IMG/VR virus record: IMGVR_UViG_3300020596_000020
Span: 17,645-81,644 of that record
Length of the DNA stretch: 64,000 bases
Strand: one strand, 5' to 3'
Origin: a virus
The notes beneath the pieces were generated by a model, which made no database searches, was not told the DNA's origin, and saw nothing but the letters and a program-made list of their open reading frames with translations. Positions 33,796 to 59,775 of the stretch are shown here, one piece after another. Each line of letters opens with the position of its first letter. The stretch's first letter is position 1. Both the position numbers and the translations under genes were made by a program.

Positions 33796-33869
33796 TGGAG
33801 CCACCGACCGGACTTGAACCGGTATAACGAAGATACAAACTTCGGGTCCTGCCATTAAACGACAGTGGC
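33796..33869 (-). tRNA. tRNA-Thr(UGU)
   Basis: GCCACTG/CGGTGGC acceptor, CGAAG-TTTGTAT-CTTCG anticodon arm, ACCGG-TTCAAGT-CCGGT T arm, encoded CCA. Confidence 0.92.
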
Positions 33870-47220: not shown

Positions 47221-47766
47221 ATGAACCGTATCGGCATCGTCCCCATGTCTGCTAAGCCGTATCACGCCGGTCACGACGCTCTCATTAGACTCGCAAGCTT
47301 CGAATGTGAGCAAGTCATCGTGTTCGTCTCTACAGGTGACCGGGTTCGTAAGGGAGAGTATCCCATTATGGCGAATGTCATGCGAAAGCTTTGGGACGAC
47401 GTCATTCTTCCGTCTCTTCCCGAAAAGGTGTTTGTCGTGTTCGTCTCAAACCCAGTCGGGGCGACGTACGAGCTCATCGGAGATCGTAACGAAGCGCCGA
47501 AGCTTAACGACGACGAGACGCTCGTCATCTACTCGGATCCGGTAGACATGGATCGCAACTTCCCAGAATGCAGTCTCTTCAAGTACGGTGGCAATCTCAC
47601 GACCAAGCGATTGCTCGCTCGTCGTCATGTCCCACGTGACACCACTGTCAATGTCAGCGGCACGCAGATGCGAGCTTGGCTACAACATGGTGACAAGTTG
47701 AAGTTCATCGCCAACATGCCGACGTCGATCGATGGGGAAGCAGTCTGGGCCGCGCTCAGTCGTTAG
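47221..47766 (+). CDS. HIGH-motif cytidylyltransferase-like nucleotidyltransferase
   Basis: KPYHAGH and VSGTQMR motifs. Confidence 0.82.
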   Translation: MNRIGIVPMSAKPYHAGHDALIRLASFECEQVIVFVSTGDRVRKGEYPIMANVMRKLWDDVILPSLPEKVFVVFVSNPVGATYELIGDRNEAPKLNDDETLVIYSDPVDMDRNFPECSLFKYGGNLTTKRLLARRHVPRDTTVNVSGTQMRAWLQHGDKLKFIANMPTSIDGEAVWAALSR

Positions 47767-47778
47767 CTATATAAAACA

Positions 47779-48228
47779 ATGAACGAGACTCATTTACGAA
47801 AGTACGTTAGAGCTGTACTAGACGAAGGTGACAAGGTTATCCCTATGCGAAAAGAGAAATCTTTCACTTCACCACCCGAAACTGATCTTAGAAAGACACA
47901 TTCACTTTCTATCAAACTATTCAAAAAGCTTCAAACTATTCTCTCAAGTGAGAATATGTCAAAAACTGAGCCTCAACAAATCATTTTGGATGATGATGAA
48001 CTTCTTCAGCTCTTGATCGCATGTGAACACGGTGATACCAGAGCTATTGAGGCTGCTTCGTTGTATGTTGAGCTTCTTGGCTATTATGAGGAAATGCCAT
48101 TTGACACGATTTTAGATGTCATTGAAGGCGAGATAAACAGCGATTTGAACACTCAAGCAAGACAGTTGACAACAGATTACTCTGGTACACCAGGTAGCGC
48201 TGACCACCATCTTACCAAGATCAAGTGA
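47779..48228 (+). CDS. hypothetical protein with N-terminal LRxYVRxxLxE motif
   Basis: MNETHLRKYVRAVLDEG; TATATA upstream. Confidence 0.65.
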   Translation: MNETHLRKYVRAVLDEGDKVIPMRKEKSFTSPPETDLRKTHSLSIKLFKKLQTILSSENMSKTEPQQIILDDDELLQLLIACEHGDTRAIEAASLYVELLGYYEEMPFDTILDVIEGEINSDLNTQARQLTTDYSGTPGSADHHLTKIK

Positions 48229-49393
48229 TCGGTGGAATAGCCTTCCCGCGGCCGTAGCGACACAAACCAAGGATGGCATTAGTCGGCGCGAAAGCACCGG
48301 TGAGTTTGTAGATCTTGTTCTTCCACGGAAAGACGATACCTTCCAACGGCGTGTTGATGCGCGAAACGTCCTTTAATTTCTGCATGTGTAGATTCGCATA
48401 ATCGATCGCGTGCTGATTTCGCGACCGTGTGACACGTACAAGGGCTTCTTTGAGCTGCTCGCGAATACGCGTCGTTTCCATGTCAGGATCAACGATCAAC
48501 GACGGTTTTACATTGCTCAAGGCGGCGACCGCGAAGTCGAAGAGCGCGAAGTCGAGAGTCGTTAGTTGTCGTGTTACCCATTCATCAGAAGTGCGTAACT
48601 TGGCAGCAACCGAAAAGGGAACACGTGCGCGCAGAACGGTCAACGACGGAGCGCCTTTGGCCTCAGACAATCGTAACGACGCTGCTTCGAGCATCGGCTC
48701 GGACATGCCATAAGCTTTCAAGTCGTCACGAGCTCGATTGATGAGCCAACTCTGCAGTGTTACTTCCGGTCGACCCATTCGTGAGACAACTGACAGGAGC
48801 TTTTGCAGCGCTACGTCGTCAGTCATCTTGTGCAAGTCGATCCTTTGAGGGCCACGAACACGCCAGTCAAACTGCTTACTACTCTCATTCATGTCATGAA
48901 TGCCAGCCTCGATCGACTTGAAGCCTTCGTTGTCATATTCTACCACGGATTGACCGTCGAAGCACAATACCGGTCGCTCATGAAGAACAAGTGTGTTGCC
49001 TTCGTACGTAACGACGTTGCGATTCTTGGTGTAGATAATCTCGGCTGAATACCACAAGCGCACATTCTCGAACACCTTGGCAACCTCGCGTAACGTAAGA
49101 CAGAGAACTGAACGGCGGAGGGTCTCGAAACCAGTCGCGAACGTGTCTTGAACGAGGCCGCGGCCTTCGAACTTCGCTTCCAGTAGCGCACCGATCATGC
49201 CTCCAGACTTGATGTCACCTTCGCTGCGTGCAGCACGAGTCTGCATCTTGGAGGTGCAGCTGTACATCAGATTTGCTCCGTCGAGCTTCTGTGTCGCACC
49301 TTGTAATGTCCCGTGTTGGATCTGAAATGCGATCGACGCAATGTCGTCAAACGTGATGTCTCTATCTTCGATCAGGTGCGATATGTGAGCCAT
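48221..49393 (-). CDS. RNA-ligase-like covalent nucleotidyltransferase (phage family of unknown function)
   Basis: Start MAHISHL; QKLDG (motif I), AEII, EGIVF (IV), YKLTG (V). Confidence 0.65.
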   Translation of the reverse strand: MAHISHLIEDRDITFDDIASIAFQIQHGTLQGATQKLDGANLMYSCTSKMQTRAARSEGDIKSGGMIGALLEAKFEGRGLVQDTFATGFETLRRSVLCLTLREVAKVFENVRLWYSAEIIYTKNRNVVTYEGNTLVLHERPVLCFDGQSVVEYDNEGFKSIEAGIHDMNESSKQFDWRVRGPQRIDLHKMTDDVALQKLLSVVSRMGRPEVTLQSWLINRARDDLKAYGMSEPMLEAASLRLSEAKGAPSLTVLRARVPFSVAAKLRTSDEWVTRQLTTLDFALFDFAVAALSNVKPSLIVDPDMETTRIREQLKEALVRVTRSRNQHAIDYANLHMQKLKDVSRINTPLEGIVFPWKNKIYKLTGAFAPTNAILGLCRYGRGKAIPPIT

Positions 49394-49394
49394 G

Positions 49395-49631
49395 TCAAGT
49401 CTCCGAAGGCTTGAAATCCTCGAGCGCTTCGGGACATTGGTAGCCGTAAGACTCCCACGCTTTTTCGCCGGGGACGTTGATGATCTTGAATCCCAGATGT
49501 TTCGCCAGCTCGTGCAGCAGGATCCTGTGATTCTCGTAGACGAGCTTGCCATCGATGTAGAGGCCGGACCAATCGTCCCCGTCAAGAACGACCACTTGTC
49601 TCTCAACTACCTTCTTGTCGGCGCGCGCCAT
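49395..49631 (-). CDS. hypothetical protein
   Basis: DDWSGLYIDGKLVYENH; 78 aa. Confidence 0.65.
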   Translation of the reverse strand: MARADKKVVERQVVVLDGDDWSGLYIDGKLVYENHRILLHELAKHLGFKIINVPGEKAWESYGYQCPEALEDFKPSET

Positions 49632-57447: not shown

Positions 57448-58668
57448 TCACTTGGGGGCGGGCTTGACCGTCTCGAGCTCAACGTATGCATTCTCATCGA
57501 CGTCTGTGTCGTACTGGTCAGTCTTCGCCTGCTCGGGCGTCTTCACGAGAGCCGCGTCGATGATGTCGGCGATGATCGTCTTGTACGTCGGATCGCGCAT
57601 GAGGTCGCCGAAGTCTGTCTTGTAAAACTTCTTCTCCGTAATGACTTCACCCGTCTTCGCGTCAACAACAGTGAGATCTTTCCACGAGCCGGTGCCGGAG
57701 ATCGACAGCAACTTGCCGTTCTTCTCGATCTTATTCTTGTCGCAGTACTCGCGTAGAACATCGAAGAGCTCCTCGTGTTCTACGATGCCCTTCCCGAAAT
57801 GGATCTGGAAGTGGATCTTGCGGAATGGCGCGGCAACCTTGTTTTTGACAACCGACGCGATGACGTTGATGCCGATGAGCTCGTCGTTCTTGTTTTTGAT
57901 GCGAGTGCCACCTGTGAGCGAGATGCGCGTCGAGGCATGAAACGGCAGAGACAAGCCTCCCGGGGTTGTCATCGGGTCGCCAAACATGACGCCGATCTTC
58001 GTACGGATCTGGTTGAGGCAAACGAGAGTGATGTTCTGGTTGCCGATGAGCTGTGTGATCTTGCGGAAGCCCTTGCTGAGCTGACGAGCCTGCAAGCCGA
58101 TGCTCTCTTGAGTGTACTCGGCTTCAAGCTCCGCCTTGGCGGGCGTGGCGGCGACAGAGTCCCAAATGATCACGACGGGCACGTCCTTGTTGGCAGTCTT
58201 CGTCTTGGTGATGATGGAGTCCATAACTTGGAACGTATCCTCGACACATCCGGTCTCGACGTAGATGAACCGTTTGGTAACGTCCACGCCAAGCGCACGC
58301 AGGTTCTCAGGGTTGACGGCGTTCTCAGTGTCGATATAAACGGCAATGCCACCCATACGCTGACAGGCTCGGCAAATCTGCGCCGCGATGTGAGACTTGC
58401 CAATGCTCGGCTGCCCGTAGATCTCAATGATGCGACCCTCGGGGAGGCCTCCGCCCTTCTTGTTGGCGACGGCGTAGTCAAGCTGAACGCTTCCGGTCGA
58501 CACCCAACGTTTGACGTGTGTCGGCGACAGGTCTGTCCCGAGGTTCCACGCCACACGGGTCTGATGCTCGCGATTCAGATCCTTGATGAGGTCCTGGACG
58601 AAGTCGTCGCCGAGACCTTTTTGCGCGGCCGGAGCTGCGTCTTCTGCCTTCTTCTTCGTTGTGCTCAT
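57448..58668 (-). CDS. recA: RecA/UvsX recombinase
   Basis: Start MSTTKK at 58668; STGSVQLD, GRIIEIYGQPSIGKS, IDTE, WDSVAA, NQIR, TPGG, KNKV. Confidence 0.95.
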   Translation of the reverse strand: MSTTKKKAEDAAPAAQKGLGDDFVQDLIKDLNREHQTRVAWNLGTDLSPTHVKRWVSTGSVQLDYAVANKKGGGLPEGRIIEIYGQPSIGKSHIAAQICRACQRMGGIAVYIDTENAVNPENLRALGVDVTKRFIYVETGCVEDTFQVMDSIITKTKTANKDVPVVIIWDSVAATPAKAELEAEYTQESIGLQARQLSKGFRKITQLIGNQNITLVCLNQIRTKIGVMFGDPMTTPGGLSLPFHASTRISLTGGTRIKNKNDELIGINVIASVVKNKVAAPFRKIHFQIHFGKGIVEHEELFDVLREYCDKNKIEKNGKLLSISGTGSWKDLTVVDAKTGEVITEKKFYKTDFGDLMRDPTYKTIIADIIDAALVKTPEQAKTDQYDTDVDENAYVELETVKPAPK

Positions 58669-58680
58669 CTTTCTCTTTCT

Positions 58681-58801
58681 TCGTGCGATGGGCAGGGATC
58701 GAACCCGCAACCGACCGGTTAAAAACCGGCTGCTCTTTCCTCACGCTCAGTATCGAGAACTAGTACTCTCGACCTCACGTCAAACTACGAGCTTCCACCG
58801 C
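58681..58801 (-). tRNA. tRNA-Lys(UUU)-like RNA with a 53-nt D-loop (insertion or intron)
   Basis: GCGGTGG/CCATCGC acceptor, GCTC/GAGC D stem, GCCGG-TTTTTAA-CCGGT anticodon arm, GCGGG-TTCGATC-CCTGC T arm; no encoded CCA. Confidence 0.75.
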
Positions 58802-58830
58802 AAACGAAAACGGCTCCGTTGAGGAGCCGT
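58802..58830 (-). terminator. intrinsic terminator after the ssb gene
   Basis: ACGGCTCC-TCAAC-GGAGCCGT followed by TTTCGTTT on the minus strand. Confidence 0.8.
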
Positions 58831-58851
58831 CTTCCAGTGTCGCTGTCGCTC

Positions 58852-59775
58852 TCAGGTCTCGAGGTCGTCGAGCGCGCTGTCCATGTCGTCAGCGACGTCG
58901 GCGAGCAAGGTCTTCTTTGCCGCCGGCTTGACCGGAGGAGTCTTGCGTTCCACAGGCTTCTCAGCCTCGACGACCTTCTCTTCAACAGCCGGCTTCTCAG
59001 CGGCTGCCTTGGGAGCTCCGCCACGAGCGAGACCGTCGCTGCCAGTCTTGTGGTCACCAGCGTCGAGCCACTCCTGCAGCTTCTTGGCCGTGTCCTCGGT
59101 GGAGGTGACCGGGTAGTAGTCGTCAATGACAGGCATCGTCTCGAGCCAGGTCTTGACAATCGCGGGGTCCTTGTGAGCCGGGCTGTTCGTTCGCTTCGCC
59201 GAGATCTTCGCCTCAAGCAGCGGCTTACCGGTGTTCTGGTTCATCTTCTTGCCGGCGCTCACGACAAGCTCGAGGTCGCAGCCTTCAGTGAGGTCGGTGT
59301 AGTCGCCGGCGTCCGTCATGAACAGCGCGATGAGCTGCTGCACGTCGGTGTAGTTCGGGGACCACATGTGAACGCCGTCGCCCTCCTTCGAGCGGTCGAC
59401 GACAGCGACGCTGTTCGCCGTCTTCGAGGACAGCAGCTTGGCCATCTTCTTGAGCTCGTCAGCCTGCGCCGGCGTCTCTGCGTTCTTCGCCTGGTTGTAC
59501 AGGTCGATGCGGAAGTTCTTGATCGGATCCTCGCCGCCGTTGTTTTCCGGCGAGACGATCATGCCTTTGCCGTCGCCTTGGATGCCGTAGTACACGATGC
59601 GCTCAGGGAACGGCATGCCGGGGTCCGCGTCCGCGAAGGGGAGCACGCGGATCGTGAACGTGCCCGGGCCCTCGTACTTCCAGCGCTTCCACTTGGAGCC
59701 GCCGCCGGAGCGGCCGCCTCCCGCGTTAATCTGCTCGAGTCGCTTACGAATCGCGTTGATGTCTACCTTAGCCAT
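58852..59775 (-). CDS. single-stranded DNA-binding protein (T4 gp32-like)
   Basis: IRVLP, DP, VVDR, GDYTDLTEGCDL, acidic C-terminal tail; lies next to recA. Confidence 0.8.
   Translation of the reverse strand: MAKVDINAIRKRLEQINAGGGRSGGGSKWKRWKYEGPGTFTIRVLPFADADPGMPFPERIVYYGIQGDGKGMIVSPENNGGEDPIKNFRIDLYNQAKNAETPAQADELKKMAKLLSSKTANSVAVVDRSKEGDGVHMWSPNYTDVQQLIALFMTDAGDYTDLTEGCDLELVVSAGKKMNQNTGKPLLEAKISAKRTNSPAHKDPAIVKTWLETMPVIDDYYPVTSTEDTAKKLQEWLDAGDHKTGSDGLARGGAPKAAAEKPAVEEKVVEAEKPVERKTPPVKPAAKKTLLADVADDMDSALDDLET

What the first reader, a model, noticed from the sequence alone, without database searches (positions are those of the whole stretch)
58681..58830. tRNA-Lys(UUU)-like RNA with a structured ~40-45 nt D-loop insertion, between a terminator and the recA start
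Seen: all four stems pair, but the D-loop is 53 nt. It holds a TCGAGA-N8-TCTCGA hairpin flanked by a direct repeat (CGTGAGG) that can form an ACGT/GCGT helix with GAG bulges, loosely like bulge-helix-bulge. Position 8 is A and the 3' end is ACGA, not CCA. The RNA starts right after the ssb terminator U-tract and ends 12 nt before the recA ATG. Inference: it could be (a) a tRNA with a non-canonical D-loop intron, (b) a decoy or resistant tRNA-Lys against anticodon nucleases such as PrrC, which targets tRNA-Lys(UUU), or (c) a tRNA-like processing element shaping the recA 5' end.
Basis: partly seen in the sequence, partly recalled or inferred. Interest (0 to 1): 0.72.

Follow-up and report, generated by a model that had tools for sequence, protein, structure and literature searches.

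The report
Phage tRNA-Lys-like RNA with D-loop hairpin
A large uncultured phage carries, between its ssb and recA genes, a strongly conserved lysine-tRNA-shaped RNA gene whose D-loop holds a 40-base hairpin that tRNA finders miss; whether it is a processing signal, a tRNA mimic or a working tRNA is not yet shown.

Summary
On the minus strand, window 58801-58684 folds as a full cloverleaf: 7-bp acceptor, 4-bp D stem, anticodon arm with loop UUUUUAA, and a canonical T arm. Its D-loop is 53 nt and contains a roughly 40-nt irregular hairpin.

ARAGORN does not call it. Rfam tRNA scores 24.7 bits, below the 29-bit threshold. Deleting the hairpin in silico gives tRNA-Lys(ttt).

Homologues sit at the same place (ssb terminator, element, recA) in five other phage lineages from metagenomes. 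In the two closest, recA four-fold sites are 70% and 54% identical, but the element is 94% and 88% identical. The insert is the best-kept part, and nearly all stem changes keep pairing, so this is not a decaying pseudogene.

More distant relatives keep the acceptor stem, T arm and G18G19. Their anticodon loops are 6 or 8 nt, and one has a normal D-loop without the hairpin.

No BHB geometry, splicing enzyme or RNA data support an intron.

My best reading (about 0.5): a tRNA-derived, non-standard RNA co-transcribed with recA and cut out by RNase P and RNase Z, with the D hairpin as a conserved recognition module. A working or nuclease-resistant tRNA-Lys is not excluded.

The closest analogue is T4 species 1 RNA (rnaC). 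Two earlier notes of this scan describe similar tRNA-shaped RNAs between ssb and recA in other phages.

The parts
58855..59775 (-). Upstream gene: probable gp32-like single-strand DNA-binding protein (307 aa) with an acidic C-terminal tail
   Evidence: Pfam gp32 PF08804 at E=1.1e-4, 22.7 bits, below the 26.8-bit cut-off. The same gene lies upstream in L004 at 94% identity.
58802..58834 (-). Intrinsic terminator-type hairpin plus U-tract, ending at the base before G1 of the element
   Evidence: Fold -21.6 kcal/mol, z=-5.7. A hairpin plus U-tract occupies the same place in L002, L004, L038 and L039, with a different stem sequence in the window and L004.
58684..58801 (-). The tRNA-Lys-like RNA, G1 to discriminator A73 (118 nt)
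   Evidence: Cloverleaf is the MFE structure. Covariance model R1 hits are unique in the window.
58795..58801 (-). Acceptor stem, 5' strand (GCGGUGG); it pairs with 58685-58691
   Evidence: 7 of 7 pairs. Changes in relatives are G.U to A-U or U-A to U.G.
58736..58788 (-). 53-nt D-loop between D-stem strands GCUC (58792-58789) and GAGC (58735-58732)
   Evidence: Read directly from the sequence. The D stem is invariant in the three close homologues.
58743..58780 (-). Inserted irregular hairpin (element positions 22-59): 4-bp helix ACGU/GCGU, tandem G.A loop, 2 bp, 2-nt bulge, 7-bp stem, loop containing CUAG
   Evidence: MFE folds. Only 3 differences in 40 nt versus L004 and versus L002, with P=6e-4 and 1e-7 under the four-fold-site rate. 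A homologous hairpin with compensatory changes is present in L038.
58739..58740 (-). GG directly 3' of the insert, followed by AAA; equivalent to G18 G19 of the tRNA elbow
   Evidence: Read from the sequence. GG at this place is kept in L002, L004, L038 and L039.
58714..58730 (-). Anticodon arm: 5-bp stem and 7-nt loop UUUUUAA, anticodon UUU at 58723-58721
   Evidence: Rfam alignment. L002 has CUU and a compensatory G-C to A-U pair.
58692..58708 (-). T arm: 5-bp stem and canonical loop UUCGAUC
   Evidence: Rfam alignment. The loop is invariant in the close homologues.
58669..58683 (-). 15-nt trailer, also the recA leader, with a purine-rich ribosome-binding site; begins CGA rather than CCA
   Evidence: Read from the sequence. 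C74 is kept in all six lineages and A76 in five.
57451..58668 (-). Downstream gene: RecA/UvsX-type recombinase (406 aa)
   Evidence: Pfam RecA PF00154 at E=1.1e-61. The start is confirmed by alignment of relatives.

Best explanation
The element is a gene for a structured RNA descended from a bacterial-type tRNA-Lys. It has been kept as a tRNA-shaped module inside the ssb-recA transcription unit, not as an ordinary decoder.

Proposed mechanism. All steps are inferred; only the conservation and anatomy behind them are shown.
1. RNA polymerase that reads through the ssb terminator transcribes the element and recA on one RNA.
2. Host RNase P cuts before G1. This leaves the ssb message ending in its terminator hairpin.
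3. RNase Z, or RNase E plus exonucleases, cuts after the discriminator. This leaves a recA message with a 15-nt leader that carries the ribosome-binding site.
4. The released 118-nt RNA keeps a tRNA elbow (GG after the insert, canonical T loop). From the D-loop, between positions 17 and 18, projects a 40-nt hairpin whose sequence is the most conserved part of the RNA. That hairpin is most likely a specific recognition site for a protein or another RNA.

In the window's own subclade the anticodon arm is still that of tRNA-Lys. Charging and some tRNA-like activity therefore remain possible.
For: Shown:
- The cloverleaf with a hairpin in the D-loop is the MFE structure.
- The same layout (ssb, terminator, element, recA) occurs in L002/L003, L004, L038, L039 and L040. 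Among 250 recA loci it occurs only in this clade.
- recA four-fold sites are 70% identical (window vs L004) and 54% (vs L002), while the element is 94% and 88% identical (P=9e-11 and 2e-15). The insert has only 3 differences in 40 nt in each comparison.
- Versus L004, all six stem changes are G.U to Watson-Crick switches. Versus L002, one pair is fully compensated. Overall 98% of cells stay paired.
- On the six-sequence model-fitted alignment, 96.8% of cells are paired, 15 pairs change on both sides, and 0 of 500 shuffles reach the observed values. Slid controls give 36-45% paired.
- L038 has an 8-nt (or 6-nt) anticodon loop. L039 has a 6-nt loop that ARAGORN reports as 'tRNA-??? (tg)'. L040 has no usable anticodon arm. 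All keep the acceptor stem and T arm.
- The discriminator varies between lineages: A, C, C, U, U, G.
- No sigma-70-type promoter lies between the terminator and recA.
- The phage's genuine tRNA-Thr also sits between two genes and encodes CCA; this element does not.

From established knowledge: RNase P, RNase Z and the CCA-adding enzyme need mainly the acceptor/T-arm stack and the elbow. U at -1 and a G1-C72 pair, both present here, are favoured by bacterial RNase P.
Against: - There are no RNA data at all. Transcription, read-through and cleavage are inferred.
- A pure processing signal does not need a conserved 40-nt hairpin, nor a canonical Lys anticodon loop. That loop changed at only one of seven positions (UUU to CUU, still Lys) in the window's subclade.
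- A strong terminator directly upstream argues for low read-through.
- Phage-specific promoters would not be seen by the sigma-70 scan.
- Only six sequences from five other lineages are available, and the six-sequence alignment was fitted to the model.
Confidence: 0.5

Rival explanations
1. A working elongator tRNA-Lys(UUU) whose mature form keeps the 40-nt D-loop hairpin. It would be processed, given CCA, charged by LysRS and used on the ribosome to read AAA/AAG.
For: - Canonical 7-nt anticodon loop with U33 and A37, 5-nt variable loop, canonical T loop, GG after the insert, and a D stem/variable-loop set compatible with the usual base triples.
- A73 in the window.
- Removing the hairpin in silico gives tRNA-Lys(ttt) in 98 of 289 deletion variants.
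- The change UUU to CUU in L002 stays Lys.
- AAG and AAA are frequent codons in the phage, at 42 and 16.5 per thousand.
- The insertion point (D-loop alpha region, between positions 17 and 18) faces solvent in known tRNA structures (established knowledge).
Against: - No D-loop of this size is known to me in any decoding tRNA. A hairpin of about 15 stacked base-pair layers at the elbow should clash with ribosomal elbow contacts (inference).
- Position 8 is A and position 14 is G, instead of U8 and A14.
- CCA is not encoded, although the phage's tRNA-Thr encodes it.
- The discriminator differs even between the closest relatives (A versus C).
- L038, L039 and L040 have non-decoding anticodon loops.
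Confidence: 0.2
2. An anti-defence tRNA-Lys mimic. It would be either a decoy that soaks up a host nuclease aimed at tRNA-Lys(UUU) (PrrC, RloC and PARIS AriB types) or a replacement tRNA that such nucleases cannot recognise.
For: - tRNA-Lys(UUU) is a classic target of phage-triggered anticodon nucleases, and phage tRNAs have been proposed or shown to counter tRNA-depleting defences (PMC10264068, PMC11555353).
- The anticodon arm is intact in the window, L004 and L002.
- The 3' two thirds of the element resemble cellular tRNA-Lys genes from the same samples at about 80-85% identity.
Against: - Known resistance changes lie in the anticodon loop, not in the D-loop (PMC10264068).
- Relatives carry CUU or non-tRNA loops, so a Lys(UUU)-specific role is not shared across the clade.
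- The anticodon stem and variable loop change at close to the four-fold-site rate between the window and L002, whereas the insert is the conserved part.
- No RNA-repair genes were found in the 81.6 kb held.
Confidence: 0.12
3. A tRNA-Lys gene interrupted by a short D-loop intron (bulge-helix-bulge-like or RNase III-type hairpin) that is removed and the halves rejoined to give a normal tRNA.
For: - A 4-bp helix ACGU/GCGU is followed on each strand by GAG, which resembles the spacing of a BHB motif.
- One relative (L039) has a clean, normal 9-nt D-loop at the same gene position, as an intron-less allele would.
- The hairpin is strongly conserved, as splicing signals are.
Against: - The first 'bulge' faces GA on the other strand, forming a 2x2 tandem G.A loop, so it is not a bulge.
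- The 3' strand has extra nucleotides.
- Excision at the repeats leaves a 19-nt D-loop that ARAGORN rejects. Even removing the whole hairpin leaves 13 nt.
- The direct repeat is not kept in L004 (CGCGAGG versus CGTGAGG) or in L038.
- No tRNA-splicing endonuclease, RtcB or Rnl2 family was found in the held 81.6 kb, which is only about 24% of the genome.
- Bacteria have no known protein-dependent tRNA splicing. At 40 nt the insert is far too short for a group I intron.
Confidence: 0.04
4. A DNA-level signal (promoter, operator or recombination site) lodged in a dead tRNA gene, or simply a decaying pseudo-tRNA.
For: - The insert holds TTGACG and GATACT-like hexamers and an imperfect palindrome.
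- L002 shares its terminator with L038 and L039 rather than with the window or L004, which hints at mosaic exchange near the element.
Against: - The hexamer spacing is 23 nt and the scan finds no promoter.
- The last T of the -10-like hexamer is C in L004 and L002.
- The substitution pattern is RNA-like (G.U to Watson-Crick switches and compensatory pairs) on one strand.
- Divergence is 6-12% against 30-46% at four-fold sites, which excludes neutral decay.
- L039 lacks the insert but has the same gene layout.
Confidence: 0.05

Closest known systems
Bacteriophage T4 species 1 RNA (rnaC / RNAC, 139 nt)
   Same: A stable phage RNA encoded among tRNA genes. Its function is still unknown (PMC3014915, PMC9697503). 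When folded here it shows an acceptor-like closing stem, a long irregular hairpin in the D-arm position, a second hairpin in the anticodon-arm position and a canonical T arm (CCGGG-UUCGAAU-CCCGG). That is the same branching as this element.
   Different: - There is no specific sequence relationship. Model R1 gives rnaC 9.4 bits (E=0.32), while ordinary T4 tRNAs score 18-42 bits.
- rnaC has no tRNA-like anticodon loop and lies in a tRNA cluster, not between ssb and recA.
- This element still has a complete tRNA-Lys anticodon arm and a normal 4-bp D stem.
Elongator tRNA-Lys(UUU) of bacteria and phages (Rfam RF00005)
   Same: Acceptor stem, D stem, anticodon arm, variable loop and T arm are all present. 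The 3' two thirds match cellular tRNA-Lys genes at about 80-85%. Deleting the insert in silico gives an ARAGORN tRNA-Lys call.
   Different: The D-loop is 53 nt. Positions 8 and 14 are A and G. CCA is not encoded. The Rfam score is below threshold and ARAGORN makes no call.
tRNA punctuation and tRNA-like processing signals in mRNAs (mitochondrial tRNA punctuation, plant mitochondrial t-elements, mascRNA at the MALAT1 3' end, bacterial tRNA-mRNA co-transcripts such as the tufB operon)
   Same: A tRNA-shaped module sits between two coding regions with almost no spacer. Excision by tRNA-processing enzymes would define the ends of the neighbouring messages. This comparison rests on established knowledge and is a resemblance, not a test.
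   Different: Those elements are not known to carry a conserved hairpin in the D-loop. Processing here is inferred, not shown.
Archaeal and eukaryal tRNA introns at non-canonical positions, including the D-loop (bulge-helix-bulge; for example PMC3241643)
   Same: An extra structured segment interrupts the D-loop, with a 4-bp helix flanked by purine-rich unpaired bases.
   Different: The BHB geometry is not met, no endonuclease gene was found, the context is a bacterial-type phage, and the excision product is not a canonical tRNA.

Membership tests
tRNA (Rfam RF00005; ARAGORN definition) | Score at or above the curated threshold, or a call by a tRNA finder | tested here: not met
   24.7 bits against 29. 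ARAGORN makes no call, with or without the intron option. Relative L039 passes at 33.7 bits.
tRNA (Rfam RF00005; ARAGORN definition) | Four-stem cloverleaf with a 7-bp acceptor stem, 5-bp anticodon and T stems, and T loop UUCRANY | tested here: met
   MFE fold. 34 pairs with 98% of cells paired in the three close sequences.
tRNA (Rfam RF00005; ARAGORN definition) | D-loop of about 7-11 nt containing G18 G19, with the U8-A14 pair | tested here: not met
   The D-loop is 53 nt. GG is present after the insert, but position 8 is A and position 14 is G.
Elongator tRNA-Lys | 7-nt anticodon loop with U33, anticodon UUU or CUU, A37, and discriminator A73 | tested here: inconclusive
   Met in the window (UUUUUAA, A73). 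L004 and L002 have C73. L038, L039 and L040 have 6- or 8-nt loops or other loops.
Elongator tRNA-Lys | Aminoacylation with lysine and use on the ribosome | not testable with these tools
   No RNA runs hold the locus. The phage and its host are uncultured.
Bulge-helix-bulge tRNA intron | Two 3-nt bulges on opposite strands, separated by exactly 4 bp and flanked by helices | tested here: not met
   The 4-bp helix is present. However, the 5'-strand GA faces GA (a 2x2 internal loop), and the 3' strand has six unpaired or bulged nucleotides before the helix.
Bulge-helix-bulge tRNA intron | Excision yields a canonical tRNA; a splicing endonuclease and a ligase are available | tested here: not met
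   Repeat-to-repeat deletion leaves a 19-nt D-loop, which ARAGORN does not call. PF01974, PF01139 and PF09414 are absent from the 81.6 kb held, which is about 24% of the genome.
Group I intron in a tRNA gene | Intron longer than about 200 nt with a P1-P9 core, usually in the anticodon loop | tested here: not met
   The insert is 40 nt and lies in the D-loop. There is no Rfam intron match at E up to 10.
tmRNA, YrlA and other catalogued tRNA-like RNAs | Match to the family model | tested here: not met
   ARAGORN makes no tmRNA call. Rfam gives nothing besides tRNA and terminator-type matches at E up to 10.
T4 rnaC-type phage tRNA-like stable RNA (informal group, no model) | Acceptor-like stem, canonical T arm, and a long hairpin replacing or expanding the D arm | tested here: met
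   Folds of both RNAs. No sequence homology, so this is an analogy, not family membership.

The most novel reading that the evidence does not exclude
The 118-nt RNA is a working lysine tRNA. It would be charged and used in translation, either with a 40-nt hairpin projecting from its D-loop or after removal of that hairpin by a so far unknown bacterial or phage cut-and-rejoin route. The expansion would make it invisible to host nucleases or other factors that attack tRNA-Lys during infection.
Probability: 0.2. Interest if true: 0.9.

Novelty: new variant of a known kind. Interest (0 to 1): 0.6.

Why it matters
tRNA finders and Rfam miss this gene, so phage tRNA censuses undercount such RNAs.

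The anatomy is unusual. A complete tRNA-Lys has a 40-nt hairpin in the D-loop, and that hairpin is the most conserved part of the RNA.

- If the RNA is only a processing module, it is a bacterial-virus example of tRNA punctuation, in which a tRNA shape is kept after decoding became dispensable.
- If it is charged or binds a partner, it would show that the D-loop alpha region can carry a functional expansion. It would also offer a natural scaffold design.

Together with T4 rnaC, whose function is still unknown about 50 years after it was sequenced, and with two similar RNAs noted by this scan between ssb and recA of other phages, it points to an uncatalogued class of tRNA-shaped phage RNAs tied to the recombination genes.

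Tried and rejected
Contigs for about 30 RecA relatives at 72-93% identity could not be fetched. This is the main limit on the covariation evidence.
- **Exact-pattern scans of viral contigs** found only the known loci.
- **Other collection scans** added only L038-L040. These were RecA- and ssb-based scans of viral contigs, metagenome contigs and genome contigs. The genome-contig scan returned only distant or archaeal RadA-like hits.
- **The phage collection** has no DNA match and no RecA above 41% identity.
- **No RNA holder is listed** among public runs.
- **Laid contigs** showed an L004-like variant and one further variant. Many cellular tRNA-Lys genes also matched 58691-58740. No contig joined across the insert.
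- **Promoter idea for the insert**: no sigma-70 match. A crude k-mer search of intergenic regions gave no phage promoter motif.
- **Repeat idea**: the 11-mer GTGAGGTCGAG is shared with the region just after tRNA-Thr. About three such 11-mers are expected by chance for this element against the window, and one-mismatch copies are mostly coding GAG-GTC-GAG.
The atlas gives only viral hypothetical clusters, some with DUF6267.
- **Enzyme families**: RtcB, tRNA-intron endonuclease, Rnl2-type ligase and CCA-adding enzyme families were not found in the 81.6-kb record. The record is about 24% complete, so this says little.
- **No other tRNA** was found in the short contigs of L003 and L004.

Full report
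**Context**

The window is part of an 81.6-kb IMG/VR virus record estimated at 24% complete, so it comes from a large uncultured phage. Public runs that hold the locus are microbial-mat metagenomes. No cultured phage has a RecA more than 41% identical.

The genes around the finding lie on the minus strand:
- a family-A polymerase-like gene;
- an HD hydrolase;
- a probable gp32-like ssb (58855-59775; Pfam gp32 just under its cut-off);
- a RecA/UvsX-type recombinase (57451-58668; Pfam RecA E=1e-61);
- a dUTPase.

Read on the minus strand, a -21.6 kcal/mol hairpin with a U-tract (58834-58802) is followed at once by G1 of a 118-nt cloverleaf (58801-58684):
- a 7-bp acceptor stem;
- AA at positions 8-9;
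- a 4-bp D stem GCUC/GAGC;
- a 53-nt D-loop;
- an anticodon arm with loop UUUUUAA;
- a 5-nt variable loop;
- a T arm with loop UUCGAUC;
- discriminator A, followed by CGA rather than CCA.

The recA ATG follows 15 nt after the discriminator. RNAfold gives exactly this structure as the minimum (-49.3 kcal/mol, z=-3.0).

Inside the D-loop, positions 22-59 form an irregular hairpin. From base to tip it has helix ACGU/GCGU, a 2x2 loop GA/GA (the geometry of tandem sheared G.A pairs), two pairs, a 2-nt bulge, a 7-bp stem, and a loop containing CUAG. GG and AAA follow the hairpin, where G18 G19 and A21 of a normal D-loop would be.

ARAGORN does not call the gene. Rfam tRNA reaches 24.7 bits against a 29-bit threshold. 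When I removed the hairpin in silico, 98 of 289 deletion variants were called tRNA-Lys(ttt). The insert is therefore the only obstacle to recognition.

**Relatives**

RecA-based scans found the same layout (ssb, terminator, tRNA-like element, recA) in five further lineages:

| Locus | RecA identity to the window | Element |
|---|---|---|
| L004 | 93% | As in the window |
| L002/L003 | 86% | Anticodon CUU |
| L038 | 73% | Homologous hairpin; anticodon loop 8 nt (or 6 nt with a sixth pair) |
| L039 | 73% | Normal 9-nt D-loop, no hairpin; 6-nt anticodon loop |
| L040 | 74% | Different long hairpin in the D position; no usable anticodon arm |

- Among 250 recA loci collected, no other carries a T-arm/acceptor combination upstream of recA. 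More distant relatives have only a terminator and an AT-rich spacer there.
- L038's hairpin differs in sequence but pairs the same way, with a loop again holding CUAG.
- L039 passes Rfam tRNA at 33.7 bits, and ARAGORN reports it as 'tRNA-??? (tg)'.
- L040 is described from its fold.
- Model R1, built from the three close sequences, finds L038 at 54.9 bits, L039 at 40.9 and L040 at 17.1, and nothing else in the window.
- R1 also scores ordinary T4 tRNAs at 18-42 bits. L039's homology therefore rests on synteny rather than on the score.

**Selection**

At recA four-fold degenerate sites the window is 70% identical to L004 and 54% identical to L002. The element differs at 7 and 14 of 118 positions (P=9e-11 and 2e-15 under those rates).

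- Versus L004, six of the seven differences lie in stems, and all six are G.U to Watson-Crick switches. The seventh is the discriminator.
- Versus L002, one anticodon-stem pair is fully compensated (G-C to A-U), and two cells lose pairing.
- On the six-sequence, model-fitted alignment, 96.8% of cells pair and 15 pairs change on both sides. Both insert helices include such pairs. 0 of 500 shuffles reach the observed values, and slid controls give 36-45% pairing. This alignment leans towards the structure, and six sequences are few.
- By segment, the insert is the most conserved part: 3 of 40 positions differ in each comparison (P=6e-4 and 1e-7). The D-loop flanks, T arm and acceptor stem follow.
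- Between the window and L002, the anticodon stem (4 of 10), the variable loop (2 of 5) and the discriminator change at about the four-fold-site rate.
- By contrast, the terminator stems of the window and L004 share almost no sequence. Where only a hairpin is needed, this spacer has diverged freely.

**What it is not**

*A bulge-helix-bulge intron is not supported.*
- The supposed first bulge faces GA on the other strand.
- The 3' strand carries extra nucleotides.
- The direct repeat CGTGAGG is not kept in L004 or L038.
- Excision at the repeats leaves a 19-nt D-loop that ARAGORN rejects.
- No splicing endonuclease, RtcB or Rnl2-type ligase is present in the 81.6 kb held, although that is only a quarter of the genome.

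*A promoter in the insert is unlikely.*
- The scan finds none.
- The key T of the -10-like hexamer is C in relatives.
- L039 lacks the insert yet has the same layout.

**What it most likely is**

All lineages share the position and the tRNA 'top half': the acceptor/T-arm stack, the canonical T loop, and GG for the elbow. RNase P, RNase Z and the CCA-adding enzyme recognise these features (established knowledge). U at -1 and a G1-C72 pair are present.

Three of the six lineages cannot decode with their anticodon loops, and the discriminator is A, C, C, U, U or G. There is no room and no sigma-70 match for a promoter between the terminator and recA. The element must therefore be transcribed with recA, most simply by read-through from ssb.

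The phage's genuine tRNA-Thr (33796-33869) is likewise wedged between two genes. It has a normal size and encodes CCA.

I therefore favour, at about 0.5, a tRNA-derived module that tRNA-processing enzymes cut out of the ssb-recA transcript, defining the ends of both messages. Its D-loop hairpin would be a separately selected recognition site for an unknown partner. Everything about transcription and cleavage is inference; no RNA run holds the locus.

**Rivals**

In the window's own subclade the anticodon arm is still a perfect tRNA-Lys arm. The single loop change keeps Lys, the window has A73, and AAG and AAA are common codons in the phage. A charged, even decoding, tRNA-Lys (0.2) or a decoy or resistant tRNA against Lys-specific nucleases (0.12; concept from PMC10264068 and PMC11555353) therefore stays open. 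The remaining rivals are an intron (0.04) and a DNA-level signal or pseudogene (0.05).

**Comparison with known things**

The best analogue is T4 species 1 RNA (rnaC). Folded from the T4 record, it has an acceptor-like stem, a long hairpin in the D position, a second hairpin and a canonical T arm. Its role is still unknown (PMC3014915, PMC9697503). There is no sequence homology, so this is a resemblance, not membership.

The element fails the formal tRNA tests on D-loop size and score. Rfam has no family for it.

Two earlier notes of this scan (e1-6073757 and e1-6022568, not tested by me) describe tRNA-Leu-like and other tRNA-shaped RNAs with hairpin insertions between ssb and recA in other phages. 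The scan has thus seen this kind of thing before on other DNA. This case differs in being Lys-derived and in keeping a complete anticodon arm.

**Verdict**

- Observation: confirmed.
- Novelty: a new variant of a known kind (phage tRNA-like RNA).
- Interest: 0.6.

Together these capped the number of homologues at six.

Noticed in passing
window 33796-33869 (-): This is the only canonical tRNA in the 81.6-kb record: tRNA-Thr(UGU), 51 bits, with encoded CCA. It sits 17 nt after one ORF's stop codon and 40 nt before the start of the dnaE C-half gene, so tRNAs embedded in operons seem to be a habit of this phage.
   Followed up: partly
window 33785-33775 (-) and 58778-58768 (-): The 11-mer GTGAGGTCGAG occurs both 8 nt downstream of the tRNA-Thr CCA and at the 5' side of the D-loop hairpin. 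About three such 11-mer matches are expected by chance for this element against the window, and one-mismatch copies are mostly coding GAG-GTC-GAG. It is probably coincidence, but its position next to the other tRNA is odd.
   Followed up: partly
L004:2645-4264 (+): The RecA of this close relative is 539 aa against 406 aa in the window. It has an internal insertion of about 130 aa, probably an intein; another relative (P0034) carries Pfam intein PF14890.
   Followed up: no
L002:1725-1757, L038:222-254, L039:2377-2409: The ssb terminators of L002, L038 and L039 are nearly identical (a GGGCC-type stem). Those of the window and L004 differ from them and from each other, although L002's tRNA-like element groups with the window. 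This suggests mosaic exchange or fast terminator turnover next to the element.
   Followed up: no
window 58691-58740: Contigs from four metagenomes (microbial mat, salt lake, sediment) hold many cellular tRNA genes that match this 3' part of the element at about 80-85%. Those genes continue into normal 5' halves. The element's 3' two thirds are therefore ordinary bacterial tRNA-Lys sequence.
   Followed up: partly
window 48224-49606 (-): A 461-aa ORF was flagged earlier as ligase-like. It has no match in Pfam, PHROGs, NCBIfam or PDB sequences. The nearest ESM Atlas clusters are viral hypothetical proteins, two of which have DUF6267 on 24% of their members. The neighbouring 181-aa ORF (47221-47763) is a cytidylyl/adenylyltransferase-type (NMNAT-like) protein.
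   Followed up: partly
L040:2388-2480 (+): This is a strongly remodelled version of the element. It has a 5-7 bp acceptor stem, a different 10-bp hairpin in the D position, a short hairpin containing GAGUAC (also present in the window's hairpin), an anticodon-like 4-bp hairpin and a canonical T arm.
   Followed up: partly
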